Shown here: piece after piece, positions 18,568-38,562 of the stretch
Layout: every line of letters starts with the position of its first letter
How positions within the stretch are numbered: position 1 is the first letter of the stretch
From: Verrucomicrobiales bacterium
GTDB lineage: Bacteria; Verrucomicrobiota; Verrucomicrobiia; Limisphaerales; JAYPXF01
Direction: 5' to 3'
Assembly: GCA_002715965.1 (NCBI GenBank)
Contig: PBAL01000059.1
Coordinates: 1 to 41,547, forward strand
Length of the DNA stretch: 41,547 nt
Notes under the pieces: model-generated
The model's input: only the letters and a program-made list of their open reading frames with translations
The model's database searches: none
What the model was told of the DNA's origin: nothing
Program-made: the position numbers and the translations under genes

Positions 18568-18629
18568 ATGTTAATCTTGCGTAAAGTGTCGGTATTCGGG
18601 GGGTAGATTGTATTTACGGTTGGCCCGCA

Positions 18630-23116: not shown

Positions 23117-23134
23117 CAATCGAAAGGAAACCCA

Positions 23135-24184
23135 ATGGTCTGGCTCAAACGTAACGTATTTATTGTAATCAGTGGAGTGGTCGCGGTGGCGCTCCTTGCT
23201 GGTGCTGTCATGTTCGCCCAGGGCGCGAAAAAGAAACAGGAAGATGCCGTAGCCAGTCTCTCCACCTACACCAATCAGGTGAAATCCCTCATGAGTGCGC
23301 GTCCGTTTCCAAATTCGGGAACGATTGACAAGGTCAAGAGCGAAACCGAAGTGATTCAAACGTTCGCCAAGAATGCTGAAGCACTGTTCGAATACAAGCC
23401 GCCCGTCCGCATGAACGGTCAGGAATTCAAGATTCATCTCTTGAAATCCTTGTTGGATTTGCAGAAGGAAGCCACCAACAACAACGTTCAGATTCCGAAC
23501 CAGTATCAGTTTACTTTCGGGCATCTGGTGCCAATGCCAAACCTGCCGCCGTATGGCATCGAAGACCTTCAGGAGCGCCTGGATGACGTCCAGCACATCT
23601 GCAAGATCCTCTATGAGTCAAAGGTGCATGCGTTGGAGCGATTGGAGCGCGTTCCCGCCTATGTCAAAGAGCCTGGCCGTGGCACGCTCACATACACCTA
23701 CTGGCCGCGGACGAATCTCACCACCTCCGACGCGGTGTTTCGAAGCATTCCCTACGTGTTTAGCTTCCGTGGATTCACCTCCGAACTCACGCAGGTTTTG
23801 AACCGACTGGCCAGCTCGGATCGGTTCTACGTGGTTCGCAAGGTGGAATTGGCCCAAACATCCGGACGCCGTCGAGCTGTCGCCGGGATGGGTATGATGG
23901 ATGACGGCGAAGGGGAGGACGGTGGGGGCGAAGCACCCGCTCCGGTCGCCGCACCTGGGCAGAACCTCACACTCCAGCAGCGCATGCGTCTCATGCAGCA
24001 GCGCGCTCAACAGCAGGCCGCCATGAAGAATGCCGGTGCTGCGCCCAGCCTCCGCACGGTGGTTGATGAACGGCCGCTACGCGTCACGATCGTCGTCGAT
24101 ATCGTGAAACTGATCCGAAACAAGAAGGAAGATGGTCCCGGAGGTCCCGGCATGCCAGGAGGTCCGGGGATGGCAGGCCCCTGA
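23135..24184 (+). CDS. PilO-like bitopic periplasmic protein. The call rests on position and topology only.
   Basis: There is an N-terminal TM helix (VFIVISGVVAVALLAGAVMFA). A coiled-coil/beta region follows. It lies between the pilMN-like and pilP/Q-like genes. Low-complexity segments are present (DDGEGEDGGGEAPAPVAAPG and C-terminal GPGGPGMPGGPGMAGP). Confidence 0.4.
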   Translation: MVWLKRNVFIVISGVVAVALLAGAVMFAQGAKKKQEDAVASLSTYTNQVKSLMSARPFPNSGTIDKVKSETEVIQTFAKNAEALFEYKPPVRMNGQEFKIHLLKSLLDLQKEATNNNVQIPNQYQFTFGHLVPMPNLPPYGIEDLQERLDDVQHICKILYESKVHALERLERVPAYVKEPGRGTLTYTYWPRTNLTTSDAVFRSIPYVFSFRGFTSELTQVLNRLASSDRFYVVRKVELAQTSGRRRAVAGMGMMDDGEGEDGGGEAPAPVAAPGQNLTLQQRMRLMQQRAQQQAAMKNAGAAPSLRTVVDERPLRVTIVVDIVKLIRNKKEDGPGGPGMPGGPGMAGP

Positions 24185-24193
24185 TTAATTTTC

Positions 24194-25174
24194 ATGGAAT
24201 TCTTAAAGAATCACTACGAGAAGATCATTCTCAGTCTCACGTTGGCTTTGGTTACCGCCGGTGCCGTGTGGTTGGCCTTGCAATCGGTGCAGGTGCGGAC
24301 AGAAATTGAAGGTCTGGGGCAAATGGCTGCCCCGCAAGTGCGGGTCGATACAAACTCCGTCACCAACGTGTTCCTGACTGCATTGACCAACGGCCGAGCT
24401 CCTCAGCAAGTGGATTTCGATGGTGCGGACCATAAGATCTTCAATGCCGAAAAGATTCTCGAACGGACGCTCGACAAAGTGAAATACCCGGCCGATAAGC
24501 TTGGTCCTAAATCCCTTGAAATAAAAGAAATCAGGTCACTTCCCCTTACGATTCGGGTCGAACAGCGGACGGTCCGCAGCCGCACTTCGGTTTATGCCTA
24601 CATGCGGCCCGCCTACGAACAAGGTCGATATGCTGTTGAAAAGAAGACTTCGATTCGTGAAGGAAAGGCTGTTCGTTTCGGGCGCACTTACACCCTGCAG
24701 CGCCAAATCGTGGTGAACGTGGAGAAGATCAATGTAGATCCCGAGAATCCGGACACTCTTTCCGTTGACTTTACGTTCAGTATGCTCGGTGGCGCGCCAG
24801 AGCAGTTCACTGTGAAAGCCAAGGAGACTTGGACCCGCGATTTGGATTTCGAAGCCGACTTATATTACCCGCCGGAGCAGAGAGACTTTCTTAAGACCCG
24901 TGTCGGGCATATTTTCACCTTTGGTGGAGACACCAATCAGGTCATCCAGATCAACGAGGAAGGATTCACTGTTCGGGCGTTCTCCAATCAAAAGCGTGTG
25001 ACGGTTACGATGAAAAACCCCGTTGCAGCCATCGCGCCAGCCGCGGTCCAGCAGAAACCCGCTGCGACCGCACCTTCCGCGATGTCCACGGGAGCGCCTG
25101 GGGCAGGTGTGGTGCCTGCCACGGCAAACCGCCAAACTCCCCCAGTGGCGGCCAATCAGAAACCAACCCCTTGA
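24194..25174 (+). CDS. PilP-like or hypothetical bitopic protein. The call rests on position and topology only.
   Basis: There is an N-terminal TM helix (IILSLTLALVTAGAVWLAL). The middle is beta-rich. The C-terminus is Pro/Ala/Thr-rich. The gene sits immediately upstream of the secretin gene, as in pilMNOPQ operons. Confidence 0.3.
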   Translation: MEFLKNHYEKIILSLTLALVTAGAVWLALQSVQVRTEIEGLGQMAAPQVRVDTNSVTNVFLTALTNGRAPQQVDFDGADHKIFNAEKILERTLDKVKYPADKLGPKSLEIKEIRSLPLTIRVEQRTVRSRTSVYAYMRPAYEQGRYAVEKKTSIREGKAVRFGRTYTLQRQIVVNVEKINVDPENPDTLSVDFTFSMLGGAPEQFTVKAKETWTRDLDFEADLYYPPEQRDFLKTRVGHIFTFGGDTNQVIQINEEGFTVRAFSNQKRVTVTMKNPVAAIAPAAVQQKPAATAPSAMSTGAPGAGVVPATANRQTPPVAANQKPTP

Positions 25175-25213
25175 TTTCTTCGGCGATTTCTGCAAAATCC
25201 GCCAACCGGTTCA

Positions 25214-28042
25214 ATGAGAAATACTTACATATTTGCCGTCTGCCTATTTTCGGCAGGCTTTTTGGGCGCACAAACAGGCGGCGTTCCGCAATTTGACCCG
25301 GTAGCGGCAGCCGAGGAAGAAGCGCTGAGGCGCGCGGAGACCAGGATGATCATGGACCTCAACCTCACCAAGGCTGAGCATTTGAAAGACGCTAAGGATT
25401 ACTCCTCTGCCTCCGTATACTACGAGGAAGTACTCAGCTTGGCGCAAAAGCTCGGCAATCTGGCTGCTGTCCAAGAAGTTGTAGAGGAAGCACGCGAAGG
25501 ATTGGTTCACAGCCGCTTGCAGAAAGCGTGGGAGTTTCAGGACGAGAAGAAGTTTACCGAAGCCGATCAGGAGGCGTCAAAGGCACTTACCGTTGTCGGC
25601 GAAAACTCAAAACTCCTGAAATTCCGCAAGTTTAACGCGTCGATTGAAGCCGCACACCAAGGTCGAATCCCGAGCCAAGAGGTGGCGGACAGCCTTCAAA
25701 ACATCCAAGACAATAAAGTAAAAGTCTTGCAGCTGATCAGGGATGGACGGGCATACTATCAGCTCGGCCAATACGAAGAAGCGGAGGCAAAACTCAAGGA
25801 GGCCATAAATATCGACCCGCATAGCGACCTCGCCTACTACTACCTGAGACTCATCCTCGAAGCGGAGTACGACGAAGAATCCAGAAAACGGGAGCACAAA
25901 TTTCAAGAACGCGTCGTGGAGGTCTCAAAGGCTTGGAACAAGGAAACACGAACGGACCTTCCAACCCCCAACCCGTATTACCGTACAAATTCCCAAATAC
26001 CCTTCCTGACCCACACCAGTAAAGGGGCGCAGTATATTCGTCGCAAGCTGCATGAAATCACCATTCCAGAAGTCGCCTACGATTCACTGACCTTGGATGA
26101 AGTGGTTGCCGATCTGATCGACTCAGTCAAAAGGGAAGATCCCGAAGGCAAAGGTTTGAACTTCCTGATCAACTCACATGCTTCCGACGTCGTGTTGCAA
26201 GGTGGCGGCGGATTGGGCGGCGGCGCCGACCTTGGGCTTGATGGCGGACTGGATGGCGGCGGTGGCGGCGGTGGCGCAGCTGCCGTTCCTGTTCTCGATG
26301 CCATGGGCAACCCCATTGCCGGTGGTCCCGGGCTGGCGCCAGGTGCGGGCCCGCCAGCGGCAGACCTCGCCTCTGTGTTGATTGACATTCAATTGCCCCT
26401 CTTCGATCTCAAGCTGGAACACGTTCTTGACGTCATTGTCAAGACTGCGGATCAGCCGATCAAATACATCATTGAGGAATACGCCATCGTCTTCACACCA
26501 AAGCTCGCGGATCAGGCGCCGCTTTACACCCGAATCTTCAAGGTCAACCCGGACACATTTCGGCAAGGTCTGGAAGGTGTTGCCGGGCGCACACCCATTA
26601 TTGCCAGCGCTGGTGGTGCCGGTGGCGGCGGCGGTGGCGGTGGCGGTGGCGGTGGCGGCGGCGGTATCGGCGGCGGCGGTGGCGGCGGCCAAGGCGGTGG
26701 TCAGAGTGGATTCTCGCTCGCGGGCGTCAATGTCGCTGGAGGTATCGGCGGCGGCGGTGGTGGTGGTGGCGCGCAAGGCGGTGGCGGTGGCGGTGGCGGT
26801 GCGGCAGGAGGCCAGGGTGCCGGATTACGAGGTATCACCTCTCCGAACGACATGACTGTGGTCAATGACGAAGTGCGGGCCTACTTCAATGCTGCGGGTG
26901 TTCAAAACCTTGCGGTTGCTGCCGGTGCACAGGCAACTCAGGTGTTTTTCAATGACCGGAATGGTCTCTTGCTGGTCCGGGCCACGCTACAGGATCTGGA
27001 CATTATCCAGCAGGCAATCGAGTTATTGAATGTTACACCTCCTCAGGTCTTGGTTGAGTCCAAGTTCGCTGAGATTTCCCAGAACGACAACAAGGGATTT
27101 GGATTCGACTGGAACATCGGCAACTCGCTTCTGCTCGACCAGACGCTCGGTATTCAGGCTGGCACAGCGCCTTCATTCTTGGGGACTCCGACGGCTGCGA
27201 ATCCCAGCGGCATCTTCCCGTTTCCAGGCACTCCGATTTTTAGCCGCGGATCAGACGGCGATCTGACCTCCTCTGCAATTCGGCAATCCGCACCTTCCCT
27301 CGCCACTCTCACTGGAATTCTCACCGACCCCCAATTCCGCACGATCATCCGTGCGTTGGAACAACGCGACGGAACTGACGTTTTGACGGCACCTCGGGTT
27401 ATCACGATCAGCGGACGTCAGGCTCAGATCCAGGTGACGGATATTCCGACCATTGTGACTGACGTGCAGGTTGGGCAGCAGGGCGGTGGCGGTGGCGGTA
27501 TCGGCGGTGGCGCGGGTGCGGTCAGCGTTGCCCTGACCCCCACGCTCCAGCAGATCGCAACCGGACCCGTCCTTGACGTACTGCCAACTGTAAACTCGGA
27601 CGGATACTCAATCAACATGTCCTTGATCCCCTCAATCACCGAATTCGTAGGTTATGATGATCCGGGCCCCTTCGCGGTTGTTGCACAGTCGGTTGGTGGT
27701 GGCGTGGTCGGTTTGCCTCTGCAGGCCACACTACCGCTCCCCCGAAGTCGTGTGCGCCAAGTTGTGACCAGTTGCGTGGTCTGGGACGCCCAGACCGTCG
27801 TGTTGGGGGGGCTGATCTCCGAAACCGTTTCCAACACTCGGGACAAAATTCCCGTTCTCGGTGACCTTCCGCTCTTCGGCAAGCTCTTCCGGTCGGAGCA
27901 CAAGCAGACTCGAAAGTCCAATCTGGTGATTTTTGTTACGCCGACCATCATCGACCCTGCTGGCAATCGGGTTCACACCGATGAAGACATGCCCTTTGCC
28001 AAGGCGCCTCCTCCTCAACCTGCGCTCATTCGCCGTCGTTGA
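25214..28042 (+). CDS. Secretin (PilQ/GspD family outer-membrane channel), 942 aa, with an N-terminal TPR-like region and three long poly-Gly inserts.
   Basis: A signal peptide is present (MRNTYIFAVCLFSAGFLGAQ). TPR-like repeats occur at about aa 40-215 (e.g. AYYQLGQYEEAEAKLKEAINIDPHSDLAYYYL). The secretin domain is canonical: GTDVLTAPRVITISGRQAQIQVTD ... VVLGGLISETVSNTRDKIPVLGDLPLFGKLFRSEHKQTRKSNLVIFVTPTIIDP. Gly runs of up to about 50 residues are present. Confidence 0.85.
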   Translation: MRNTYIFAVCLFSAGFLGAQTGGVPQFDPVAAAEEEALRRAETRMIMDLNLTKAEHLKDAKDYSSASVYYEEVLSLAQKLGNLAAVQEVVEEAREGLVHSRLQKAWEFQDEKKFTEADQEASKALTVVGENSKLLKFRKFNASIEAAHQGRIPSQEVADSLQNIQDNKVKVLQLIRDGRAYYQLGQYEEAEAKLKEAINIDPHSDLAYYYLRLILEAEYDEESRKREHKFQERVVEVSKAWNKETRTDLPTPNPYYRTNSQIPFLTHTSKGAQYIRRKLHEITIPEVAYDSLTLDEVVADLIDSVKREDPEGKGLNFLINSHASDVVLQGGGGLGGGADLGLDGGLDGGGGGGGAAAVPVLDAMGNPIAGGPGLAPGAGPPAADLASVLIDIQLPLFDLKLEHVLDVIVKTADQPIKYIIEEYAIVFTPKLADQAPLYTRIFKVNPDTFRQGLEGVAGRTPIIASAGGAGGGGGGGGGGGGGGGIGGGGGGGQGGGQSGFSLAGVNVAGGIGGGGGGGGAQGGGGGGGGAAGGQGAGLRGITSPNDMTVVNDEVRAYFNAAGVQNLAVAAGAQATQVFFNDRNGLLLVRATLQDLDIIQQAIELLNVTPPQVLVESKFAEISQNDNKGFGFDWNIGNSLLLDQTLGIQAGTAPSFLGTPTAANPSGIFPFPGTPIFSRGSDGDLTSSAIRQSAPSLATLTGILTDPQFRTIIRALEQRDGTDVLTAPRVITISGRQAQIQVTDIPTIVTDVQVGQQGGGGGGIGGGAGAVSVALTPTLQQIATGPVLDVLPTVNSDGYSINMSLIPSITEFVGYDDPGPFAVVAQSVGGGVVGLPLQATLPLPRSRVRQVVTSCVVWDAQTVVLGGLISETVSNTRDKIPVLGDLPLFGKLFRSEHKQTRKSNLVIFVTPTIIDPAGNRVHTDEDMPFAKAPPPQPALIRRR
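26198..26282 (+). repeat. Gly-codon (GGC/GGT) simple-sequence tract inside the secretin gene.
   Basis: Read directly: ggtggcggcgg ... ggcggcggtggcggcggtggc encoding GGGGLGGGADLGLDGGLDGGGGGGG. Confidence 0.6.
26608..26812 (+). repeat. Interrupted (GGCGGT)n tandem hexamer arrays encoding poly-Gly inside the secretin gene.
   Basis: 26608-26700 reads ggtggcggcggcggtggcggtggcggtggcggtggcggc. 26741-26812 reads ggcggcggtggtggtggtggcgcgcaaggcggtggcggtggcggtggcggtgc. A non-repeat gap lies at 26701-26740. Confidence 0.7.
27491..27527 (+). repeat. (GGCGGT)n tract, the third poly-Gly insert of the secretin gene.
   Basis: Read directly: ggcggtggcggtggcggtatcggcggtggcgcgggtgcg. Confidence 0.6.
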
Positions 28043-28193: not shown

Positions 28194-30083
28194 ATGATCG
28201 TCCTGCGCAACCCCTTGTCATTGTTGGTCTTGCTCATCCTTGGGCTTGGCTTTTCGTGGCATTGTGAGGCGCAGAATACCTTCGCCAAACAGGCGGGGGA
28301 GTACTACATCTCCGGGCAGATGGGCGCCGATCAGGTATTGCCGGACGTGTCGATAAATGGGCAGGGCGGAATCATCGTGTGGCAGGATAATTCCGTTGAT
28401 GGCGCGGGCACTGGCATCTGCGCACAGCGTTTGAATGCAAATTTGTCAGGGGAGAACAATGCGTTCCAGGTAAACTCGATCGACGCCGGCAACCAAGGTA
28501 AGCCGCAGGTTCGAATGTTGCCTGATGGAGGTGCGGTTTTTGCGTGGGAAGGCGGAGAACCGGGCCAGCAGAACATTTATGTTCGCTATATGGATGCAGC
28601 GGGCACCTTTGCCGGGCCGGATATCCAAGTGAACCAATACAACACTGATTTTCAGATTCGGCCAAAGCTTGCGGTGGCGAGCGACGGCAAGGTCATGGTC
28701 GTCTGGTCCAGTTCAGGGCAGGATGGTCATTTTCGATCCGTGTTTGGTCGGGTGATCGCTGCCGACAAAAGTTTTGCTGGCAATGAATTCCAGATCAACG
28801 TCACCACACACCTCAACCAGCGCACGCCTGATGTTGCGGCTTTGGACGATGGCAGATTCGCCGTTGTCTGGATCACTGAGAAGTATCTTGGATTGAATAA
28901 CACCGGTGGCGGGCAATACGCCATCGATGTGCTTGGACGATTGCTGGATGATACTGGCGCCCCAGTGACTGGCGAGATCTCGATCGAGAATTCCCAGCAC
29001 TTGTGTGCCAACCCCTCGGTGAGTTCTTCTCAACGCGGATTCGTTGTCGTATGGGGGCAACGAAACGTTGCGAGCAGAGGGGGTGGTTGGGATGTCTACG
29101 GCGCTGGTTTCGACTTGTCGGGAACCCGGCTCGCGGATCCATCGCGACTTAACACTTATACCTTTGGTGATCAGTATGCCCCAAAGCTTGCCCGGTCCGG
29201 TGCAAACCTCCTCGCAGTTTGGTCGAGCATGGGGCAGGACTCTTCCTACGAGGGTGTGTTTGGTTCCGTGCTGACCGATAACGGTGCGGCGTTCGGTGAG
29301 GAGCTGGCGATCAATTCCGAAACTCGCAGCCGTCAGCAGCATCCGGATATTGAAGGAGATGACACGGGTAGGTTTCTTGTGACGTGGAGCGGCTATACGA
29401 TCGGCACGGGAGATCAAATGGATATCAAGGGGCAGAGGTTGGCCAATGCAGCTCCCTTGCCTGTACTGCCCGCTCCGTACTTGAGTGCTCTCAGCCAGAC
29501 CCGGATTTCCGTTTCATGGGCGCCACTTGCGGGCTTCACCGTTCAGCATTACGAGGTTTACGTCGATGATGCTGCCGTTCCCCTGACTACGACGGACAGC
29601 CATCTCTCTGTCACTGGCCTGGTTCCGGGCTCTTCTCATTCCATCAAATTAGGGTATCGCTTGAATGACGGCCGGCAGGGTGCGTTCTCGCTGCCTTCCA
29701 CGCTGTCGACCTGGGGAGAGGATTTGAACTTTGACGGATTGCCAGATGATTGGCAGGCCCGTTATTGGACCGGCAGCGCCTCGTCTTACCCTGCTGTTTT
29801 TCTGGATAGCGATGGAGACGGCGCATCTAACGTAGACGAATTTCTTGCCGGCACGGACCCGACGGATTCCGATAGTGTGCTGAAGTTATACATCTCCCGG
29901 AACGGGAATTCGCTGTGGCTCAACTGGAATTCCATGCCGGGCAACCTCTATCAGGTGCAGAGGTCCGCCGATATGCGCAATTGGCAGGATGTCGGAAACG
30001 CGCGCTTCGCCGTGGACGCCACGGACACATTGTTGATTGGAAACCAAGCTGCCGCAATTTACCGGATCATCCGAGTCAGGTGA
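28194..30083 (+). CDS. Secreted multidomain protein: seven-repeat beta-propeller-like region, FN3-like domain, DSDGDG calcium-binding-type motif, and the conserved ~65-aa C-terminal module.
   Basis: A signal peptide is present (MIVLRNPLSLLVLLILGLGFSWHCEA). Seven ~50-aa repeats each carry a G-hh-VVW-x(5-8)-G core: GGIIVWQDNSVDG, GAVFAWEGGEPG, KVMVVWSSSGQDG, RFAVVWITEKY, GFVVVWGQRNVASRGG, NLLAVWSSMGQD and RFLVTWSGYTIGTGD. An FN3-like segment (RISVSWAPLAGFTVQHYEVYVD...SHSIKLGYRLNDG) follows. Next comes DSDGDGASNVDEFLAGTDPTDSDS. The C-terminus is LWLNWNSMPGNLYQVQRSADMRNWQDVG...AAAIYRIIRVR. Confidence 0.6.
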   Translation: MIVLRNPLSLLVLLILGLGFSWHCEAQNTFAKQAGEYYISGQMGADQVLPDVSINGQGGIIVWQDNSVDGAGTGICAQRLNANLSGENNAFQVNSIDAGNQGKPQVRMLPDGGAVFAWEGGEPGQQNIYVRYMDAAGTFAGPDIQVNQYNTDFQIRPKLAVASDGKVMVVWSSSGQDGHFRSVFGRVIAADKSFAGNEFQINVTTHLNQRTPDVAALDDGRFAVVWITEKYLGLNNTGGGQYAIDVLGRLLDDTGAPVTGEISIENSQHLCANPSVSSSQRGFVVVWGQRNVASRGGGWDVYGAGFDLSGTRLADPSRLNTYTFGDQYAPKLARSGANLLAVWSSMGQDSSYEGVFGSVLTDNGAAFGEELAINSETRSRQQHPDIEGDDTGRFLVTWSGYTIGTGDQMDIKGQRLANAAPLPVLPAPYLSALSQTRISVSWAPLAGFTVQHYEVYVDDAAVPLTTTDSHLSVTGLVPGSSHSIKLGYRLNDGRQGAFSLPSTLSTWGEDLNFDGLPDDWQARYWTGSASSYPAVFLDSDGDGASNVDEFLAGTDPTDSDSVLKLYISRNGNSLWLNWNSMPGNLYQVQRSADMRNWQDVGNARFAVDATDTLLIGNQAAAIYRIIRVR

Positions 30084-30084
30084 T

Positions 30085-31527
30085 ATGAAGCGAATCCTCC
30101 AGACAATCTTGTTTGTGCTCCTGTTTGGCATCTTCACGCGGGATGCGAAGGCGTTTTCCTTGCTGGGTCCATTCGCAGCGTACCAATCCACCGACTTGGG
30201 ATACAACACCGGGGTGAACGGGGTGGATGTCGGTGGGCCGATGAACATAGGTGAGGAGTATCGAATCAACTATCGCGGACTCACCTACGCGTTCGATGCG
30301 ACCTTCCTCACCTATTTCGGCAATCAGGGGATTGCAGCGGTTACGGAAGCCATCACGATTTTGAATCAGATTCCCGGTGCGACTGTCATCGATCAGACTC
30401 TGGGGACGTTCCCTCTGCAATCGAAAGGACCAAAGAATTTTGCCGCTGAGACCCTGGGCGTGTTCGATATCAAGTCTCTCACGATGGGAATCCTGTTTGC
30501 GCAGATGGGAGTCGGTAACCCAGAGCGTTGGACATGGACTTTGCGCGATGAGGACACCACCACCGGGATTTACACCGTTATTCAGCGGAACTTCGACCCG
30601 GGCACCTGGCTGCCTTCGGCACTTGTCAACGGGTCCTTGTATACCTACCGCATCGAGGATCCGGTATTTCCCGTTCCCATCGTTGACTTTGCTGACGCCA
30701 TCGAAGTGTTGGCTGATCCGTTGGATTTCGACTTTACCTCGGTTGCGGGTGCGGAGAATCCGGATCCTCTGCGAGGGGGCAATCTGGCTGCAGGCGAATA
30801 CTATACCGGCATTACGCGTGACGATGCGGCTGCCCTCGCCTACATCTACAGCGAACGGAATTCAAACTTTGAAAACATAGTTGCCAATGCCCAGCTGGCG
30901 ACCAACGCGGGTGGACCTTGGCAACCGTTTGGTTTTACGAATGCCCTGTTCACCAACGAGCTGGTGGATCTGGCGCTTCGACCTGGCATCGGGAAGGTTG
31001 ATTTCGAAAGGGTGTCGTTTGATTCCCTGCTCGGAACATCGATTGACATTACGAACACCTTTACCGACACCTTCATTACCAATGGGATTGCCTCGAACCA
31101 AGTCGTAGAGAGGGCCATTACCCTGCCCGACATCGTTTTTGCCGCGTCAGATCTGGGAACTGTGGCCGGCGTCCCGGTCTTCTACGAGCGAACCAGCGGT
31201 AGCGGCGGAGGGGGGGGCGGTGCCGGCGGGGGGACTGGTGGATTTGTCAACAACTCTGCCCTGAACACCGCGGTGGGTGGCGGTGGCGGTGGCGGTGGCG
31301 GTGGCGGTGGCGGTGGTTTGGATGGACCAGGTCAAATTCAACCGACGGTGATCATTACATTCAGTCGATTGGGGCCGTACATCGTAAATACCACGCCAAA
31401 CTTCCTTACAGAAGCCACGGGGACACGTGGGCCCCGATGGGGGCATTTTGACACGGCAACCATCCACGCAATTTTTCCGGACGGGCAATCGATACGAGAT
31501 ATCGAGCAGGGCATTCACTTTCCATGA
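30085..31527 (+). CDS. Secreted hypothetical protein with a poly-Gly insert and no shared C-terminal module. The start is taken at the Met after the upstream stop; the ORF nominally opens at 30037.
   Basis: A signal peptide is present (MKRILQTILFVLLFGIFTRDAKA). The body is Gly/Thr/Asn-rich and includes SGSGGGGGGAGGGTGGF...GGGGGGGGGGGGGGLDGPG. The stop overlaps the next gene's ATG (ATGA at 31524-31527). Confidence 0.5.
   Translation: MKRILQTILFVLLFGIFTRDAKAFSLLGPFAAYQSTDLGYNTGVNGVDVGGPMNIGEEYRINYRGLTYAFDATFLTYFGNQGIAAVTEAITILNQIPGATVIDQTLGTFPLQSKGPKNFAAETLGVFDIKSLTMGILFAQMGVGNPERWTWTLRDEDTTTGIYTVIQRNFDPGTWLPSALVNGSLYTYRIEDPVFPVPIVDFADAIEVLADPLDFDFTSVAGAENPDPLRGGNLAAGEYYTGITRDDAAALAYIYSERNSNFENIVANAQLATNAGGPWQPFGFTNALFTNELVDLALRPGIGKVDFERVSFDSLLGTSIDITNTFTDTFITNGIASNQVVERAITLPDIVFAASDLGTVAGVPVFYERTSGSGGGGGGAGGGTGGFVNNSALNTAVGGGGGGGGGGGGGGLDGPGQIQPTVIITFSRLGPYIVNTTPNFLTEATGTRGPRWGHFDTATIHAIFPDGQSIRDIEQGIHFP
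31201..31320 (+). repeat. Poly-Gly-encoding simple repeats containing a G8 homopolymer (31210-31217) and a (GGCGGT)6 array (31281-31316). The array is the same hexamer as in the secretin gene.
   Basis: Read directly: ggagggggggggcggtgccggcgggggg ... ggtggcggtggcggtggcggtggcggtggcggtggtttgg. Confidence 0.65.
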
Positions 31528-34439
31528 CACTCCGAACGCTTCAGCAATATCTGATGGTTGCGATATGCCTGGGGCTGCTCCCCGAAGGGGCGAATTGCGC
31601 CACCGGTGTGTTTGAGAATCGGGGTACCACCAACAATGCCCAGGTGGATGCCTGCGTGTTCATCAACAGCGGACAATTCACTGTCATCGACAATTCGTTT
31701 CGGGCGCTCCCCTACCAGACACGCAATACCTCCCTCTTTACGAACGAGCAGGGGGGCGTGATGTCCTTCCAGCCGGGTGTGATCCTGGAACTGGTCACGA
31801 ACAACACCCGGGTCTTCATGGATTCGTTCGTTAATTTTGGAGATATCCGGGTGAGTGGACTTGGGCGCTTTGACGCCAGGTCCAGAAACGTCGTTTCTTC
31901 CGGTAACATCAGCTCATCCACCGGTGGACGCGTTCGATTGGAGGGCAACAATATAAGCGTAGAGCGTGGAGCCCTCTCCGCCTTGATCGAGTCAAACGTC
32001 ACGACTGACGTTCGGTTGTTTCAGCCCTTGTTTTTTTCAAATCCTCGTGGGGTGGAGGATATTTATTGGGGCGGTGGGATTGGCGGGCAACATCAGCTCC
32101 TTTCTGTCCCAAGTTCCCTGAGCATAGAACCCACGCAGTTCGGACTGGCGAGTGCCATCACACCAATACACGAAGTCATCTATCCCGCGTCGGGAGCTGT
32201 CAGCACGCTAAGCAATCTTTTATTCACCAATCACATGAGCTTCGTCTACACGCAGCAGATCGCACTGTCGAACCTCAGCACGACCGTGGTCATCATAAAC
32301 ACGAATCCGATGACAACCAATATGACCATCGACGTGCGCTTCGATCCCTCTTATCTGTTTGCGCCCGCGCCGGTCATTCAGCTGGGGCACACGGATACCA
32401 ACTTCCGCGACGGCACGATCGTCACCAACAAGATCTACTTCATCGATCACCTCTTGGATCAGACCAATACACCAGCGTTGCTGACCATTGCGGACAACAC
32501 GAATGACGTGACGTTTCGTCCGCGCAATTACCAGATTTCCCGCGGCTCGGATTTTGATTTCTACTTCAGCAATTCAACGGTCGTCGCCAACTCCGTTCAG
32601 ACCAACGACACTTTCTTTCGGCAGGATTTCTCCAATACCTTCACCACCAACTATCGCTATTCCGCATACGCGGCACGAATTGGCGATCCGGTCACAAACG
32701 CGATGACCGTCTTTGGGGATGGCGGGAATCTCGCGCTGAGTGACGTGACGAACCTGCCGGGCCGCGTTGAAATATTCAGCGATTCACTGAACATGCGATT
32801 AAGCCGGCTTGAAGCCGAGAACACCATCATCATCAACACCGAAAATTTGCAGGACAGTTCGCGCTCACTCATCAAGGCTCCCAACGTAATATTCAACGTC
32901 AAAAAGGCGAATGACACGTTGGCACTTACCAACTTTGTTCCCGCCTCGGTGCCGGCGTTCAACGGTTTCATAGAGGCCTTCAGTGCCAGTTGGACGAACC
33001 AATCCGGACCTCAGTCCTTTACCTATCACGTCCTGATGCTTGACGTGAAGGACTTGGCGGTGGAACAGGCCGTGCGACTGCCGTCGCTCAATCTGAGTGC
33101 AACCAATCTGGTGGTGCAGAACATCCTCAATGCGGGACGTTCCTTCGTTTTCGATTCACCTGCGGTGACGTTTCAAGATGGCACTGAACTCAGGCTCAAC
33201 TTGAACACTATTCCCAACCTGCTGCCGACAAATTTCCCGTCCATGACTCACTTCACCAACAGCGGGATCATCACCGTCCCCGGTTTGGCGGATTTTGTTG
33301 GGCCGGCCGGGAGCAGTGGGCTGACTAAAATGATCACCGACGGCACGATTCTGGCAAATGCCCTGAACATCACGGCCAGTTCGTTCCAATCATCCGGAAC
33401 GAACGGAACGGCGATTGTCCAGCCGTCCGGGATCATTGCCGGAGGTGGACCGCTTCGGCTTGTTGCTGATTCGGCAAAACTGGAATCGAACACCAACGCA
33501 CCGGGTCGATTCTTCGCCGGCGGATCGATTGATTTCAGGGCCAACGTTTTCGAGTTGCAAAACCAGCGGATCGAAACTCCCGGCAAATTCTTCCTGAATG
33601 CAACGAACTCGATCAAGGACCGCGATGGATTGGGGAACAATCTGATTTCTACCGGACTCGGCTTCGAATCGCGGGTCAAGCCGCCATTGGGGGATTTGAG
33701 AGGGACCACCATTGAAATCACCGTCGGATTTAACGATGAGGTTACCAATGTCTGGCCTGCGGCTGATGTGGGCCCGTTCATCGGCGGCTTCACCAACAAC
33801 CTTGCTGTCGGGAAGCTGGTGATCGATACCACCAATAACTTCTTGTCAACAGACCTGACCCGGTTCGAGGGGGCGAGCGTGAGTAATGCCATTTATATCG
33901 ACTTCCTGGAACTTCGCGGCCAAGTCACCAATGACCTTGCAGGCCATCTCAGCATTGCGGACAACATGCGAATCTACTTTGCGAACTCCAATGTCGATAT
34001 CGATCTGCTGAACGGCGCACTGGGAGGCAAGATCCAGTGGGTGAAAGATTACGCAGGACTGAATTCCGGTATCATCGTGAATGTCGATGGGCGTACGTTC
34101 CTGGTGAATGAGAAGAAATTCAACAGCCGGACGGTAGATTCCGACGGAGACGGACAAGCCAACGCCGTCGATCAGCGGCCCTTCGAGGGCGTGGTGGTGA
34201 AAACCAACGTCGTACTGAGTACGGTGACGACGAATCTGGGTGTAAACATCACTTGGGAAGCTGCAGCCAACACCGTCTATCGAATCGAAGCCAACACTAA
34301 CCTGAACACGACGAACTGGGTATTTGTGACGAGTTTCACCAACACGGCCACCAGCAGTGGGGACGTTAGCCTCCAGGAAATCATCAGCGCCACCAACCGG
34401 CCGGCCGCACGCTATTATCGGATTTCTTATGTTCCTTGA
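31524..34439 (+). CDS. Large (971 aa) secreted Asn/Thr/Ser-rich protein (beta-helix/adhesin-like composition) with a DSDGDG motif and the conserved C-terminal module.
   Basis: A signal peptide is present (MTLRTLQQYLMVAICLGLLPEGANCA). The body is a long N/T/S/V-rich sequence with repetitive N-x-[ST]-type beta-strand runs. RTVDSDGDGQANAVDQRP occurs near the C-terminus. The C-terminus is VNITWEAAANTVYRIEANTNLNTTNWVFVTSF...RPAARYYRISYVP. Confidence 0.6.
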   Translation: MTLRTLQQYLMVAICLGLLPEGANCATGVFENRGTTNNAQVDACVFINSGQFTVIDNSFRALPYQTRNTSLFTNEQGGVMSFQPGVILELVTNNTRVFMDSFVNFGDIRVSGLGRFDARSRNVVSSGNISSSTGGRVRLEGNNISVERGALSALIESNVTTDVRLFQPLFFSNPRGVEDIYWGGGIGGQHQLLSVPSSLSIEPTQFGLASAITPIHEVIYPASGAVSTLSNLLFTNHMSFVYTQQIALSNLSTTVVIINTNPMTTNMTIDVRFDPSYLFAPAPVIQLGHTDTNFRDGTIVTNKIYFIDHLLDQTNTPALLTIADNTNDVTFRPRNYQISRGSDFDFYFSNSTVVANSVQTNDTFFRQDFSNTFTTNYRYSAYAARIGDPVTNAMTVFGDGGNLALSDVTNLPGRVEIFSDSLNMRLSRLEAENTIIINTENLQDSSRSLIKAPNVIFNVKKANDTLALTNFVPASVPAFNGFIEAFSASWTNQSGPQSFTYHVLMLDVKDLAVEQAVRLPSLNLSATNLVVQNILNAGRSFVFDSPAVTFQDGTELRLNLNTIPNLLPTNFPSMTHFTNSGIITVPGLADFVGPAGSSGLTKMITDGTILANALNITASSFQSSGTNGTAIVQPSGIIAGGGPLRLVADSAKLESNTNAPGRFFAGGSIDFRANVFELQNQRIETPGKFFLNATNSIKDRDGLGNNLISTGLGFESRVKPPLGDLRGTTIEITVGFNDEVTNVWPAADVGPFIGGFTNNLAVGKLVIDTTNNFLSTDLTRFEGASVSNAIYIDFLELRGQVTNDLAGHLSIADNMRIYFANSNVDIDLLNGALGGKIQWVKDYAGLNSGIIVNVDGRTFLVNEKKFNSRTVDSDGDGQANAVDQRPFEGVVVKTNVVLSTVTTNLGVNITWEAAANTVYRIEANTNLNTTNWVFVTSFTNTATSSGDVSLQEIISATNRPAARYYRISYVP

Positions 34440-34460
34440 TCGGGACTGATTACGGCAGAC

Positions 34461-37400
34461 ATGTCAACTAACTCGACAGCACAGTTCTTATCCAAGGCGA
34501 TTCTCTCGATTGTCTGCGTCATGCTGTTTGGGCTGCCGTGCACGAGTCAGGGCGCGCAGCTCCTCAGCGTGCCGGATGGCACCCCCTCAGTGGTGAATCT
34601 CTCCGAAATCGGAACGGCCGGAGGTGCATTTCAGGTCGCGTCGCCAAACCCGGAGACCAACTTCGTTGGGCTTATAGACGACCTTTCGGTCATTCCACCC
34701 GACGCTGCGGCCGCGGTGGGGACCAATCATCTCATGATTGCGGCCAACAGCCAGATCGTGATTCAGGACCGGGGCGGCAATACGATACAGACCGTGAACC
34801 TGATCGATTTCTGGCAGGGTTTTGTGGGGGTGAATGGCCGGGTGTTCAGCCCGAAACTACTCTATGACTCTTCCTCCAATCGATGGGTGATGACGACCTG
34901 CGCCAATCCCGGCACGCCCGATTCACGAATTCTCCTCGCCGCAACCTTGAGCGATGATCCGACCCAGTCTTGGGTGAGATATTCCATTGATGTGGACACG
35001 AACGCTCAGGCGCAGTTCTGGGGAGAGACCAGTGGCTTGGGTTACAACGACGAATGGGTGGTTGCCACCAAGAATATTCGCAACATAATCTTCGGCGGCT
35101 TCAGCTTTTCTCGTCTCTACATCTTCGACAAAAGCGCCATCTATCAGGGCTTGGGTCTCGGCACGAACGAGTTCGCCGAGGTCAACGAGTTCACCACCCC
35201 GAACATTGTGCCCGCCGTCTCTCATGACTCAAGCCCGGGTGTGGAATATTTTCTTGCCAATGGGGCAGGCAATGACGGACTCAACAACGGGTTCCTGAGA
35301 ATGTTCAGACTAACGGAGGTTTCTAATATATTTACACTGTCGCAATTACCTTCACCCACCATAGATAATCCGTGGAGTGATGCGCCCAATGCTGGCGACG
35401 CTGATTTTGCACCGCAGACCAACACACTGAATCGCGTATGGAACGGAGACTCAAGGATTCAGAATGTTGTCCTGCGCAATGGGTCTTTGTGGGCCGCGCA
35501 AACCGTGTTCCTTCCATCAGGTGCGGCGACTCGTTCATCCGCGCAGTGGTGGGAGATCAATCCCAATTCGACGGTCATTCAATTGGGACGGGTGGATGAT
35601 ACGAACGGTTTTCGTTTTTACGCGTTCCCTTCGATCGCTGTGAACCGTAACAACGACGTGCTCTTGGGATACTCCAGTTTTTCCCCCGTGACACACCCGA
35701 GCGCGAGCTATTCGTTCAGGTTTGGCTCTGACCCCGCCAATACCTTGCAGCCAGAGGTGGTGTATCGGGACGGCAGTGCACCCTACTACAAACCAGATTT
35801 TACCGGCCGCAATCTCTGGGGCAGGTATAGTTCCACAGTCATTGACCCGAACACGGACCAGGACATGTGGACGCTCCAGCAGTATGCGGAGCAACCCTTG
35901 AGCAGCCTGGATCGGTGGGGCACGTGGTGGGCGAAAATTCTGTTATCCGCGCTGCCGGATGGAATTCTGGAAGTGGTTGTCACGCCGTCCAACGGTTCGT
36001 TGATTCCGGCCGGAGATAACCAGGTTTTTTCAGTCAAAGTTTTCGATACTTTCTCAGTCACCGACGCGGTGATCCAGGTGACGGCACCTGGTTTTTTCAC
36101 CAATCAGGTCTTCAGGAACGACGGTGTAATCCCTGACGTACTGGCGCAGGATAACATCTACACCCTCGAACTGGATTTGCCCTCGACGAACTCAGCTGCA
36201 AACTTCCACTTCGAGGTTCGTGCCGACGGCAAGGTTCCGCTCTTCTTCACCAATACTTACATCATCGCGCCCCCACCACCGAATGATGCGTTTGTCAAAT
36301 CGGAGAAGCTGCCGGACTCCAGCCAGCCGCTGATCATCACCAACCGTAACTTCTTTGCCACTCGTGAAACAGGAGAGCCAGTTCATGCCGGTGTCGGCAC
36401 ATTTGGTGCATCGGTTTGGTGGACGTGGGCGCCGGTGCAAAGTGGACCCGTGTTGATCGATACACTCGGAAGCAAGTTCAACACTGTATTGGCGGTGTAC
36501 ACGGGTAATGTACTGAGTCTGCTCTCGAACGTTGTTTCGAACAACGACGTGAATGATCAATTCGGGCAGTTTGTACGGGAAGAAGCGTTCGTCAATTTCA
36601 ACGCACAGGCCGGTGTGACCTATCGAATCGCGGTGGCAGGGGCGACCACCAATGACTTTGGCGATATTCGCATGCGATTGGCGTTCAACGGGCAACCCGA
36701 TACCGCGATTCCAAAGATTGCGATCACCAATATTATCAGTGGTGGCCGCATCCTCCAGATCAACGGTGGCGTTCTTCAGTTGGGTGGAACAAATCTGAAC
36801 ATTGTCGGCACCAACTTAAATGCGGTGGAAATCCCCATCCTTAATGGAACAAACATCGTGGTCGGCCCGACCAACCTGATCATCGGCGGGACCAACCTGA
36901 TCATGGGGGGTGTCTCGGTGACCAATCCGCCCAGCGGTCTCATCGTGACGAATTCCGACACAGTACTTTCAGGTTATGGTTATGACTCAGGAACGGATGA
37001 CTCAGGGGTGAATCTGGTGCAAATCATCGGAAATTCCGGAACGCCGATCACCGCCAATATTAGTGACACGAATGCCGTCCCCACCAACGACTGGGCTCTG
37101 GTCTTTGACCTCGACCGGGGATCAAATCGGCTCGAAGTTGTTGCCTTCGACCTCGCTCGTAATCGTGGGACAACGAACTTTGTGGTGAATGTCCGCGAGT
37201 TTGATCCTGCGTTCGACGTGTTTGCCAGTGCGCTCTTACTGACCAACACCAACGGCTTCGTGACGGCGAACAACAACAATGCCACCGTCGAACTCAATGA
37301 ACCGCTTCATGCTAACAAAATCGGCGGCAAATCTGTGTGGTTTGAATTCATTGCTCCGGCCAATGGCGTGCTCGATCTGTCCACCACGAACTCCACGTTC

Positions 37401-38489
37401 GATACACTGATGGCGGTCTATTCCGGTGGCCGGGTCAACGAGCTGAGCGTGCTGCAATCCAATGATGATCAGGTTTCCGGATTCGTGCACAGTGCCGTGT
37501 CTGTCGGTGTCGTCGCGGGACAGTCCTACAAGATTGCCGTGGACGGACTGGGGGGCGTGAGTGGCATTCTGCAGTTGCACTACACGTTTACGCCCCGCTC
37601 GGTCTTCACCATCACAGTGTCGAACAGCATGGGAGGAACGGTATCGCCAGGAACAGGTTCACATTTGGAAGGAACACAAATCACGGCGACGGCGACACCT
37701 GGTAACGGGTTCGAATTTGTTACTTGGAACGGTTCTGTACTTACGTTGGACAATCCGCTTACCATCACTCTGAATTCAAACTTGAACATCAATGCCGTCT
37801 TCGCACGCACGCAGATCACTGATGATTTTGAGGATGGCGTCTTTAGTACAAATATTGCGTGGACAAACGTCGCCGGCGCCACACCTTGGCGGGTTCAACT
37901 CACCAATGGTGTGATCACAAACGCCACCCTTGGAGGACGTTTTACGGCTCGTTCGGGAGCGATTAAGCACGGTGAAACCAGTGACCTCTCCCTTTCGGCC
38001 AATATGCGCGGAGGGCCCGCACGATTTCTCTACAAGGTAAGCAGCGAAGATTTTGATGATCTCTTCACCTTCTTCCTGAATGGCGTTCAATTGCTCTCTG
38101 TTTCCGGTGAGTCGGACTGGCAGACGTATCAGTTTACCGTTCCGGAAGGTGCCAATGAATTCCGTTGGGTGTATACGAAAGATCAGGATCTATTCAGTTC
38201 AGGCCATGACTCTGTGTTCATCGACAACGTGGAATTGCCGATACGTGCAACGGTGCTGACGAATGTGACCACTTCGTTCAATACCAACGGAACACGGGTG
38301 CTGGGCAATGGGACACTTCAAATGCGATTGGAAGGACAGACGAATCAGGTGTACGTGATCCAGGCGTCGTCAGACTTGATCCAGTGGACCACCTTGGGCA
38401 TGCATCACGCTCCCCACGGAATCATACAGTTCACAGACACCGCTTCCACCAATCACACGCGCCGGTATTATCGCGCCTTCATTCCCTGA
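34461..38489 (+). CDS. Very large (1342 aa) secreted protein with an internally duplicated ~130-aa domain and the conserved C-terminal module.
   Basis: A signal peptide is present (MSTNSTAQFLSKAILSIVCVMLFGLPCTSQGA). Two paralogous internal domains occur. The first reads ETGEPVHAGVGTFGASVWWTWAPVQSGPVLIDTLGSKFNTVLAVYTGN...AQAGVTYRIAVAG. The second reads LNEPLHANKIGGKSVWFEFIAPANGVLDLSTTNSTFDTLMAVYSGG...VAGQSYKIAVDGLGG. The C-terminus is LQMRLEGQTNQVYVIQASSDLIQWTTLG...HTRRYYRAFIP. Confidence 0.6.
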   Translation: MSTNSTAQFLSKAILSIVCVMLFGLPCTSQGAQLLSVPDGTPSVVNLSEIGTAGGAFQVASPNPETNFVGLIDDLSVIPPDAAAAVGTNHLMIAANSQIVIQDRGGNTIQTVNLIDFWQGFVGVNGRVFSPKLLYDSSSNRWVMTTCANPGTPDSRILLAATLSDDPTQSWVRYSIDVDTNAQAQFWGETSGLGYNDEWVVATKNIRNIIFGGFSFSRLYIFDKSAIYQGLGLGTNEFAEVNEFTTPNIVPAVSHDSSPGVEYFLANGAGNDGLNNGFLRMFRLTEVSNIFTLSQLPSPTIDNPWSDAPNAGDADFAPQTNTLNRVWNGDSRIQNVVLRNGSLWAAQTVFLPSGAATRSSAQWWEINPNSTVIQLGRVDDTNGFRFYAFPSIAVNRNNDVLLGYSSFSPVTHPSASYSFRFGSDPANTLQPEVVYRDGSAPYYKPDFTGRNLWGRYSSTVIDPNTDQDMWTLQQYAEQPLSSLDRWGTWWAKILLSALPDGILEVVVTPSNGSLIPAGDNQVFSVKVFDTFSVTDAVIQVTAPGFFTNQVFRNDGVIPDVLAQDNIYTLELDLPSTNSAANFHFEVRADGKVPLFFTNTYIIAPPPPNDAFVKSEKLPDSSQPLIITNRNFFATRETGEPVHAGVGTFGASVWWTWAPVQSGPVLIDTLGSKFNTVLAVYTGNVLSLLSNVVSNNDVNDQFGQFVREEAFVNFNAQAGVTYRIAVAGATTNDFGDIRMRLAFNGQPDTAIPKIAITNIISGGRILQINGGVLQLGGTNLNIVGTNLNAVEIPILNGTNIVVGPTNLIIGGTNLIMGGVSVTNPPSGLIVTNSDTVLSGYGYDSGTDDSGVNLVQIIGNSGTPITANISDTNAVPTNDWALVFDLDRGSNRLEVVAFDLARNRGTTNFVVNVREFDPAFDVFASALLLTNTNGFVTANNNNATVELNEPLHANKIGGKSVWFEFIAPANGVLDLSTTNSTFDTLMAVYSGGRVNELSVLQSNDDQVSGFVHSAVSVGVVAGQSYKIAVDGLGGVSGILQLHYTFTPRSVFTITVSNSMGGTVSPGTGSHLEGTQITATATPGNGFEFVTWNGSVLTLDNPLTITLNSNLNINAVFARTQITDDFEDGVFSTNIAWTNVAGATPWRVQLTNGVITNATLGGRFTARSGAIKHGETSDLSLSANMRGGPARFLYKVSSEDFDDLFTFFLNGVQLLSVSGESDWQTYQFTVPEGANEFRWVYTKDQDLFSSGHDSVFIDNVELPIRATVLTNVTTSFNTNGTRVLGNGTLQMRLEGQTNQVYVIQASSDLIQWTTLGMHHAPHGIIQFTDTASTNHTRRYYRAFIP

Positions 38490-38562
38490 AGCGCGGCCGG
38501 TCGTCGCTCCCCTGCTTCTGGTTAGTTTTGGTTAGAGCCAACCCCGCTGTGCTGTTACACAC

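What the first reader, a model, noticed from the sequence alone, without database searches (positions are those of the whole stretch)
28194..38489. Shared ~65-aa C-terminal module (W...Y-x-V-[EQ]-x-S-x-D-[LM]-x-x-W...(R)YYR(I)) on three neighbouring giant secreted proteins; candidate novel sorting/attachment domain
The C-termini align by eye as follows. First: LWLNWNSMPGNLYQVQRSADMRNWQDVGNARFAVDATDTLLIGNQAAAIYRIIRVR. Second: VNITWEAAANTVYRIEANTNLNTTNWVFVTSFTNTATSSGDVSLQEIISATNRPAARYYRISYVP. Third: LQMRLEGQTNQVYVIQASSDLIQWTTLGMHHAPHGIIQFTDTASTNHTRRYYRAFIP. Conserved positions are a Trp or Leu at the module's start, then Y-x-[VI]-[EQ], [ST]-x-[DN]-[LM]-x-x-W, a Gly, and a terminal aromatic-Arg motif. 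Two of the three proteins place a thrombospondin-type DSDGDG calcium-binding motif immediately before it. The module is not PEP-CTERM (no TM helix or Arg tail). It does not match the T9SS CTD or LPXTG either. It has the feel of a small beta-sandwich (FN3-like W/YxV spacing). A C-terminal domain shared by otherwise unrelated cargo, sitting next to a dedicated secretin machinery, is exactly how new secretion-sorting signals have been discovered before.
Basis: seen in the sequence. Interest (0 to 1): 0.8.

Follow-up and report, generated by a model that had tools for sequence, protein, structure and literature searches.

The report
Uncurated FN3-like C-terminal end domain
Three neighbouring exported proteins of a marine Verrucomicrobiota bacterium end in the same small fibronectin-III-like domain, which belongs to a very large, uncatalogued family that almost always forms the last ~70 residues of diverse exported proteins, so it may be a localisation tag, but nothing ties it specifically to the secretin next door.

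The parts
28194..30083 (+). P1, 629-aa exported protein: signal peptide, repeat region with weak PDIAV-lipoprotein-like similarity, FN3-like region, TSP3-like DSDGDG motif, C-terminal module.
   Evidence: Orthologues at 39-45% identity in L001, L008 and L009 keep the module.
29805..29867 (+). TSP3-like calcium-binding motif of P1 (aa 538-558, DSDGDG at 29805-29822).
   Evidence: Pfam TSP3_bac E=0.0017, below the gathering score; position. Not a family-wide neighbour of the module (1/106).
29898..30080 (+). C-terminal module of P1, the most divergent copy; ends IYRIIRVR-stop.
30085..31527 (+). P1b, 480-aa exported protein with poly-Gly runs and no module; a conserved member of the cassette.
   Evidence: Orthologues in L001, L008 and L009 and in two JGI contexts.
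31524..34439 (+). P2, 971-aa exported protein with no Pfam match, DSDGDG at 34137-34154 and a C-terminal module.
   Evidence: Orthologues in L008 and L009 keep the module.
34212..34436 (+). C-terminal module of P2; ends RYYRISYVP-stop.
   Evidence: Independent family HMM 37.6 bits, E 4.7e-11.
34461..38489 (+). P3, 1342-aa exported multidomain protein (Flg_new_2 at aa 1050-1117; weak galactose-binding-like domain) with a C-terminal module.
   Evidence: P3-like genes occupy the same position in related clusters.
38280..38486 (+). C-terminal module of P3, the copy closest to the family consensus; ends RRYYRAFIP-stop.
21242..28042 (+). Upstream context, not part of the module: PilM-like Amuc_1101-family gene (21242-23116), Amuc_1100-family gene (23135-24184), 326-aa unknown (24194-25174), Amuc_1098-family secretin (25214-28042).
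   Evidence: NCBIfam and Pfam hits. Gene order conserved in relatives.
15649..20039 (+). Further upstream conserved context: GT4 glycosyltransferase, XrtA-like exosortase (16836-17864), EpsI (17857-18567), EPS priming sugar transferase (18630-20039).
   Evidence: The same order occurs in the P0188, P0221 and L009 contexts.

Best explanation
Shown: each of the three proteins ends in one copy of an uncurated, lineage-expanded derivative of the fibronectin type III domain. It is a ~65-75-aa beta-sandwich with strands A-B-C-C'-E-F and the consensus G..Y.[IV][QE].S.[DN]L..W ... F.D ... R[FY]YR. The chain stops 4-5 residues after the F strand, often on Pro, so the canonical G strand is missing. Across the family the domain sits at the very C-terminus, usually as a single copy, on a wide range of Sec-exported enzymes and adhesin-like proteins, mainly in Verrucomicrobiota.

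Inferred mechanism: after Sec export, the folded C-terminal domain acts as a localisation tag. It would dock the cargo to a component of the cell envelope (surface retention or hand-over to an outer-membrane step), as dockerins and T9SS C-terminal domains do for unrelated cargo. The tag is used genome-wide and is not a signal specific to the neighbouring Amuc_1098-type secretin. P1, P2 and P3 carry it because they are exported or surface proteins of a conserved cassette that lies downstream of that secretin.
For: Membership and homology: the independent HMM hits all three tails. The profile search of 1.84 billion representatives found 2362 clusters at E<=1e-3 and 106 at E<=1e-10. The family consensus is strong.

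Tag-like distribution: 131 of 138 family proteins in the representative set carry a copy within 8 aa of the C-terminus. In the position-neutral DNA-pattern sample the figure is 132 of 141, and 133 of 141 ORFs have a single copy. After RFYR the tail is 4-5 residues long in 77% of cases, and the last residue is Pro in 54-61% of terminal copies. Pro is not among the five commonest residues at the fourth position after RFYR in internal copies.

Cargo: pro-kumamolisin, BspA-LRR, arylsulfotransferase, phosphoesterase, M10 and M64 peptidases, cohesin, GH9 and Ig/FN3 arrays. Signal-peptide-like N-termini occur in 48 of 59 module ORFs against 55 of 157 controls.

Retention in evolution: P1 and P2 orthologues at 31-48% identity keep the module.

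Not secretin-specific.

From established knowledge: known extreme-C-terminal domains shared by unrelated secreted cargo (T9SS CTD, dockerin, SLH, PEP-CTERM) act in targeting or anchoring.
Against: No experiment bears on localisation, cleavage or a partner. The conserved residues align with FN3 core positions, so they may reflect the fold rather than a recognition surface. About 6% of ORFs have tandem copies, and some copies are N-terminal or internal, which classical sorting signals do not show. Between orthologues the module is no better conserved than the rest of the protein (38-48% vs 39-45% for P1). No recurrent partner gene appears in 660 kb of neighbourhoods. Taxonomic scope rests on five named MAG proteins. 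The absence of strand G rests on alignment and AF2 secondary structure, not on coordinates I could inspect.
Confidence: 0.45

Rival explanations
1. Plain structural FN3-type domain. It would be a stabilising end-cap or spacer with no targeting role, and its C-terminal position would reflect how these genes grow, by domain accretion or recombination at the 3' end.
Against: A spacer should not lie within 8 aa of the stop codon in 94% of proteins, mostly as a single copy on enzymes as well as adhesins. Ordinary FN3 domains in the same proteins are internal or N-terminal. Terminal copies carry a tail of fixed length ending in Pro that internal copies lack.
Confidence: 0.25
2. Ligand- or glycan-binding module (CBM- or adhesin-like) that binds external substrates or the cell's own exopolysaccharide. 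It would be related in motif to discoidin/CBM32 domains.
For: The family profile's best PDB sequence hits are CBM32/discoidin domains of a Paenibacillus glucanase (2rv9, E 2.5e-5). There are weak F5_F8_type_C(_2) Pfam hits in 9 and 5 of 60 members. The three-sequence HMM cross-hits true discoidin arrays. CBMs are often C-terminal. The window cluster includes EPS and exosortase genes.
Confidence: 0.15
3. One reading: a secretion-sorting signal recognised by the adjacent Amuc_1098-type secretin and PilM-like machinery.
For: The run secretin-P1-P1b-P2-P3 is conserved in relatives whose secretins are 44-64% identical. An unrelated GspD-type secretin in L114 is also followed directly by a 1713-aa protein with two terminal modules.
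Against: Around 120 random module genes, 660 kb holds one secretin and one PilM, and an extra module ORF occurs about every 28 kb. I have no measured secretin gene density for these genomes to compare with. P1b sits in the same cassette without the module. A 5'-3' exonuclease gene separates the secretin from P1 in L001, L008 and L009. From established knowledge, known secretin pathways (T2SS, T4P) do not use linear or C-terminal-domain signals.
Confidence: 0.08
4. Chance resemblance of three low-complexity, Thr/Asn-rich tails with no common origin.
For: Pairwise BLAST is weak or absent.
Against: The independent HMM gives E-values of 4e-7 to 9e-22 with no other hit in the window. The AF2 folds are concordant. 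The module is conserved in orthologues.
Confidence: 0.01

Closest known systems
Fibronectin type III domain (Pfam PF00041, bacterial 'Y-x-[IV]-E-R-S-x-D-G-x-x-W ... Y-Y-Y-R-V' subtype)
   Different: The Pfam fn3 HMM does not detect it. It is about 20-25 residues shorter and ends just after strand F, with no FG loop or G strand. Ordinary FN3 domains are internal spacers, whereas this one is terminal in about 94% of proteins.
Type IX secretion C-terminal domain (T9SS CTD; TIGR04183 / PF18962)
   Different: No sequence-model match. The phylum differs: from established knowledge T9SS is a Bacteroidota/FCB system. Tandem and internal copies exist here. No cleavage or machinery is known.
Dockerin and other non-covalent surface-attachment modules (dockerin/cohesin, SLH, cell-wall-binding repeats)
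   Same: All are C-terminal modules shared by diverse secreted enzymes and are sometimes repeated for avidity. A few family members also carry cohesin domains.
   Different: The fold is unrelated (dockerin is an EF-hand-like helical module). No partner has been identified.
Discoidin / F5/8 type C / CBM32 domains
   Same: They share the local motif 'L.W....Y.I..S.D...W', which causes HMM cross-hits.
   Different: Discoidin domains have 130-150 aa in a different beta-sandwich. Only about 50 residues align, and the Pfam scores fall below the gathering thresholds.
Akkermansia Amuc_1098-Amuc_1102 'pili-like' gene cluster (context only)
   Same: The window's PilM-like protein, Amuc_1100-family protein and secretin match the NCBIfam Amuc_1101, Amuc_1100 and Amuc_1098 families, all below the equivalog cut-offs. 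In A. muciniphila these proteins are abundant envelope proteins proposed to form pili-like structures (PMC5332112).
   Different: The window cluster continues with four large exported proteins, three of them module-tagged. Whether Akkermansia has such neighbours was not tested.

Membership tests
Fibronectin type III (Pfam fn3 PF00041 / FN3 superfamily) | Match to the Pfam fn3 HMM at or above the gathering score | tested here: not met
   No fn3 hit at E<=10 for the three window tails. fn3 is not among the 25 most-hit families for 60 family members at E<=1.
Fibronectin type III (Pfam fn3 PF00041 / FN3 superfamily) | Detectable homology to bona fide FN3 domains | tested here: met
   hhalign of family alignment A2 against A5, whose members score 27-41 bits on Pfam fn3: probability 97.2%, E 2.8e-11, 63 aligned columns.
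Fibronectin type III (Pfam fn3 PF00041 / FN3 superfamily) | Seven-strand sandwich A-B-E / C'-C-F-G | tested here: not met
   The alignment stops at FN3 column 78 of 100, which is strand F. The AF2 models show five to six main strands, and the chain ends 4-5 residues after RFYR. This rests on secondary structure only; coordinates were not inspected.
Fibronectin type III (Pfam fn3 PF00041 / FN3 superfamily) | FN3-like fold by structure comparison | tested here: met
T9SS C-terminal sorting domain (TIGR04183 / PF18962) | Match to the curated CTD models | tested here: not met
   No hit in Pfam or NCBIfam for the window tails or for 60 family members.
T9SS C-terminal sorting domain (TIGR04183 / PF18962) | Single extreme-C-terminal beta-sandwich on diverse Sec-exported cargo | tested here: met
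   132 of 141 ORFs terminal and 133 of 141 single copy. Diverse cargo. Signal-peptide-like N-termini in 48 of 59.
T9SS C-terminal sorting domain (TIGR04183 / PF18962) | T9SS machinery (SprA, PorV, PorU etc.) in the same genome and cleavage of the CTD | not testable with these tools
   Only a 41.5-kb window and loci of <=23 kb are available. No proteomics.
PEP-CTERM / exosortase substrates | C-terminal PEP motif, transmembrane helix and basic tail | tested here: not met
   The tails end ...YRIIRVR...YYRISYVP and ...YYRAFIP with no hydrophobic helix. A PEP-CTERM regular expression finds none in the window, although an XrtA-like exosortase is encoded at 16836-17864.
Discoidin / F5/8 type C (PF00754, PF22633) | Match above the gathering score over a domain of about 130 aa | tested here: not met
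   Best E-values are 0.0049-0.0066, in 5 and 9 of 60 members, below the cut-offs and covering only part of the profile. The PDB profile hit covers residues 55-109 of a 136-aa domain.
LPXTG sortase signal | LPXTG motif followed by a hydrophobic stretch and a basic tail | tested here: not met
   No such motif in the last 80 residues of P1-P3.

The most novel reading that the evidence does not exclude
The module is the cargo tag of an undescribed outer-membrane sorting or surface-anchoring system of Verrucomicrobiota, a functional analogue of the T9SS C-terminal domain or of dockerin. It would be recognised as a folded, G-strand-less FN3 domain through its open F-strand edge and fixed C-terminal tail (R-F-Y-R-x-x-x-P-COOH), possibly by strand complementation with an envelope receptor.
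Probability: 0.3. Interest if true: 0.85.

Novelty: new variant of a known kind. Interest (0 to 1): 0.6.

Why it matters
How Verrucomicrobiota move their large repertoires of enzymes and adhesins to the cell surface is poorly understood beyond PEP-CTERM/exosortase and generic secretins. This is a very large domain family that current Pfam and NCBIfam models do not detect. It obeys a strict positional rule on unrelated exported cargo, so it is a concrete handle on the question. It defines a candidate secretome or surfaceome that can be predicted by HMM, and it makes reporter fusions, proteomics and phylogenetic profiling for the partner straightforward. Even if it proves purely structural, a curated model would annotate thousands of 'hypothetical' C-termini in soil, peat, freshwater and marine metagenomes.

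Tried and rejected
1. The word-indexed protein search with the three tails found only one near-identical fragment. With 60 family members it found 24 short fragments. These served only as the AF2 alignment.

2. The top 150 of the representative search suggested that multi-copy arrays are the rule (144 of 150). I rejected this as a ranking artefact of summed scores after the position-neutral DNA-pattern sample showed 94% single copy.

3. The search for related loci with the family alignment failed because no stretch was conserved enough. The afdb50 fold library was unavailable.

4. Foldseek against the PDB gave nothing significant.

5. I looked for a partner gene near 120 random members. There was one secretin and one PilM. 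All-vs-all clustering of neighbouring ORFs gave only common families (PAS kinases, methyltransferase) and shadow ORFs.

6. Terminal versus internal copies: terminal copies find another protein's terminal copy as nearest neighbour in 61% of cases against 35% expected. Orthology may explain this, so I do not count it as evidence.

7. Choice-of-anchor test (same cargo with PEP-CTERM instead of the module): only two PEP-CTERM ORFs in the sample, which is uninformative.

8. The promoter and terminator scan of 21000-39500 did not differ from shuffled sequence.

9. Literature searches for the motif or for a Verrucomicrobia C-terminal sorting domain found nothing relevant. The library does not include most subscription journals.
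Full report
**What is in the window**

The window is identical over this region to TARA Oceans marine metagenome scaffolds; the longest is 107 kb. Its + strand carries a long co-directional gene run:
- GT4 glycosyltransferase
- XrtA-like exosortase (16836-17864) and EpsI
- EPS priming sugar transferase and an epimerase
- a PilM-like Amuc_1101-family gene (21242-23116)
- an Amuc_1100-family gene (23135-24184)
- a 326-aa unknown
- an Amuc_1098-family secretin (25214-28042)

Four tightly packed genes follow, all with signal-peptide-like starts: P1 (28194-30083, 629 aa), P1b (30085-31527, 480 aa), P2 (31524-34439, 971 aa) and P3 (34461-38489, 1342 aa). The gaps between them are 1, -4 and 21 nt. 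P1b has no such tail.

**Is the shared module real?**

Pairwise similarity is weak. BLASTP finds nothing for P1 vs P3 and gives E 0.002 for P2 vs P3. An HMM of the three tails was searched against 1.84 billion representative proteins. It found 2362 clusters at E<=1e-3 and 106 at E<=1e-10.

From 255 hit segments that exclude the window proteins and their orthologues, I built an independent family HMM. Searched against the window's 572 six-frame ORFs, it hits only the three tails:

| Tail | Bits | E-value |
|---|---|---|
| P3 | 71.8 | 9e-22 |
| P2 | 37.6 | 5e-11 |
| P1 | 25.1 | 4e-7 |

. The family consensus is N-G-x-F-x-L-x-L-x-G-x-P-G-x-x-Y-x-[IV]-[QE]-A-S-T-[DN]-L-x-x-W ... G ... F-x-D ... 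R-F-Y-R. AlphaFold2 models of the P3 and P1 tails are confident in the core (pLDDT 78.5 and 79.4, core above 85) and show the same strand layout.

**What the domain is**

No Pfam-A or NCBIfam model matches the window tails or 60 diverse family members. There are only sub-threshold hits to discoidin models and DUF3999.

The three-sequence HMM also picked up genuine bacterial FN3 arrays and discoidin arrays. I aligned ten of the FN3 units, which score 27-41 bits on Pfam fn3, and compared profiles. hhalign gives 97.2% probability and E 2.8e-11 over 63 columns. The alignment ends at the FN3 F strand (YYYRV aligned with RFYR), leaving the FG loop and G strand of FN3 unmatched.

The module is therefore a divergent FN3 derivative of about 65-75 residues (strands A-B-C-C'-E-F) whose chain stops 4-5 residues after the F strand. 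The missing G strand is inferred from the alignment, the unit length (about 75-aa period in arrays) and DSSP strings. I could not inspect coordinates.

**Where the domain sits in proteins**

In the top 150 representatives most proteins have 2-8 tandem copies. That list is ranked by summed score and so favours arrays. With the family HMM, 131 of 138 true family proteins have a copy ending within 8 aa of the C-terminus.

For a sample neutral to copy number, I scanned metagenome contigs with a DNA pattern for Q-A-S-x-[DN]-L-x-x-W...R-F-Y-R. At the protein level this pattern matches 15% of internal and 15% of terminal copies in the representative set, so it does not favour either position. The scan stopped at its 120-locus limit, and 119 loci were HMM-confirmed.
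- Of 141 module ORFs that end at a stop codon, 132 (94%) have the module within 8 aa of the stop.
- 133 of the 141 (94%) have a single copy.
- 89 of 101 pattern instances are terminal.
- After RFYR the tail is 4-5 residues long in 77%, and the last residue is Pro in 54% (61% in the representative set).
- In internal copies Pro is not among the five commonest residues at the fourth position after RFYR.
- A minority of proteins carry the module N-terminally or internally, followed by other domains.

**Cargo and taxa**

The cargo is heterogeneous. It includes FN3 and Ig arrays, Big_9, CARDB, cohesin, GH9, pro-kumamolisin, BspA-LRR, arylsulfotransferase, phosphoesterase, PATR, RCC1, FGE-sulfatase, and M10 and M64 peptidases. 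Of complete module ORFs, 48 of 59 have an N-terminal hydrophobic stretch, against 55 of 157 control ORFs from the same loci. This is a crude test.

Another module ORF occurs about every 28 kb of flanking DNA, so the family is strongly expanded or clustered in its hosts. Named members are four Verrucomicrobiota or Verrucomicrobiae MAG proteins and one Hydrogenedentota MAG protein on a 4.5-kb contig. The closest secretin homologues are from Limisphaerales and Verrucomicrobiota MAGs.

**Relation to the secretin**

Secretin homologues at 44-64% identity lie in the same cluster order. The exosortase and EPS genes are followed by PilM, the Amuc_1100-family gene, an unknown gene and the secretin. An optional 5'-3' exonuclease gene comes next, then P1, P1b, P2 and a P3-like gene. 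The P1 and P2 orthologues keep the terminal module and P1b never has it. The adjacency in the window is thus a conserved cassette.

The module itself is not tied to secretins. In 660 kb around 120 random members there is one secretin (L114) and one PilM (L052). In L114 a GspD-type secretin is followed by a 1713-aa CarboxypepD_reg-repeat protein with two terminal modules. No other gene family recurs near module genes. The TSP3 motif that precedes the module in P1 and P2 is found upstream of 1 of 106 other members. Between orthologues the module is conserved about as well as the rest of the protein.

**Most likely mechanism**

Shown: an uncurated FN3-derived domain family, a strict C-terminal position, mostly a single copy, and diverse cargo that looks exported.

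Inferred: this distribution is the one seen for domains that localise cargo, such as the T9SS CTD, dockerin and SLH. It is hard to reconcile with a neutral spacer. I therefore favour a post-Sec localisation or retention tag that docks cargo to an envelope component (confidence about 0.45). The fixed short tail and terminal Pro may mark a recognised or protease-protected C-terminus.

Rivals:
- a purely structural FN3 end-cap (0.25)
- a ligand- or glycan-binding module (0.15)
- chance resemblance (0.01)

The main weaknesses of the favoured reading are these. The conserved residues align with FN3 core positions. Tandem and internal copies exist. No partner was found. There are no experiments.

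**Novelty and verdict**

The fold and the general idea of a C-terminal beta-sandwich tag are known. The family itself, its truncation after strand F and its positional rule are not captured by Pfam (2025 copy) or NCBIfam 20.0. I found no description in the searchable literature, which is not proof of absence.

I rate it a new variant of a known kind, with interest 0.6. The 'novel sorting/attachment domain' reading is partly supported at family level. The proposed link to the neighbouring secretin is not supported.

Noticed in passing
window 15649-38489; L008, L009 and the contexts: One long gene order is conserved across Limisphaerales-type MAGs (secretin identity 44-64%). It runs GT4, XrtA-like exosortase, EpsI, EPS sugar transferase and epimerase. 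These are followed by PilM-like, Amuc_1100-family, unknown and secretin genes, then P1, P1b, P2 and a P3-like gene. This links an exosortase/EPS module, an Akkermansia-type 'pili-like' module and four large exported proteins.
   Followed up: partly
window 30085-31527 (P1b): A 480-aa exported protein has two long poly-Gly runs (G6AGGGTGG and G15) and no database match. It is conserved between P1 and P2 in every related cluster and never carries the C-terminal module.
   Followed up: partly
L001 8842-9831; L008 12891-13757; L009 12869-13786: A 5'-3' exonuclease gene (Pfam 5_3_exonuc_N and 5_3_exonuc) sits between the secretin and the P1 orthologue in three relatives. It is absent from the window and from two other relatives.
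   Followed up: no
L114 2233-11612; L007 2041-8821: This is a second, unrelated arrangement. A GspD-type secretin is followed by a CarboxypepD_reg-repeat protein ending in two modules, then a fervidolysin-like subtilase. L007 has the same cargo and subtilase genes; no secretin was listed in its 14-kb locus.
   Followed up: partly
family-wide: Terminal copies end R-F-Y-R plus 4-5 residues, and the last residue is Pro in 54-61% (Gln in 17% of the unbiased sample). In internal copies Pro is not among the five commonest residues at that position. The reason is unknown; protection from tail-specific proteases or recognition of the C-terminus are possibilities.
   Followed up: partly
window 3181-8481: A 1766-aa protein has DUF3686 ('ATPase involved in DNA repair', E 1e-181), DUF7902 and an AAA domain, and a Lys-rich C-terminus. 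Two unannotated genes precede it (249-908 and 921-3056).
   Followed up: no
window 24194-25174: A 326-aa protein between the Amuc_1100-family gene and the secretin has no Pfam or NCBIfam match, although it occupies the position of Amuc_1099. The only Amuc_1099-family hit in the window is a weak one to the TSP3 region of P1 (aa 536-562, E 5e-5).
   Followed up: no
L063 1257-2105; L111 723-1679: Genuine PEP-CTERM tails (VPEP, hydrophobic helix, RR) occur on other proteins in contigs that also carry module proteins. The two C-terminal devices therefore coexist in the same organisms.
   Followed up: no
P3, window about 36300-37500: P3 contains two segments resembling pre-peptidase C-terminal (PPC)-type domains, for example 'SVWWTWAPVQSGPVLIDTLGSKFNTVLAVYTG...'. 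P3-like genes in relatives carry a Peptidase_S8 domain that the window's P3 does not show in Pfam.
   Followed up: no
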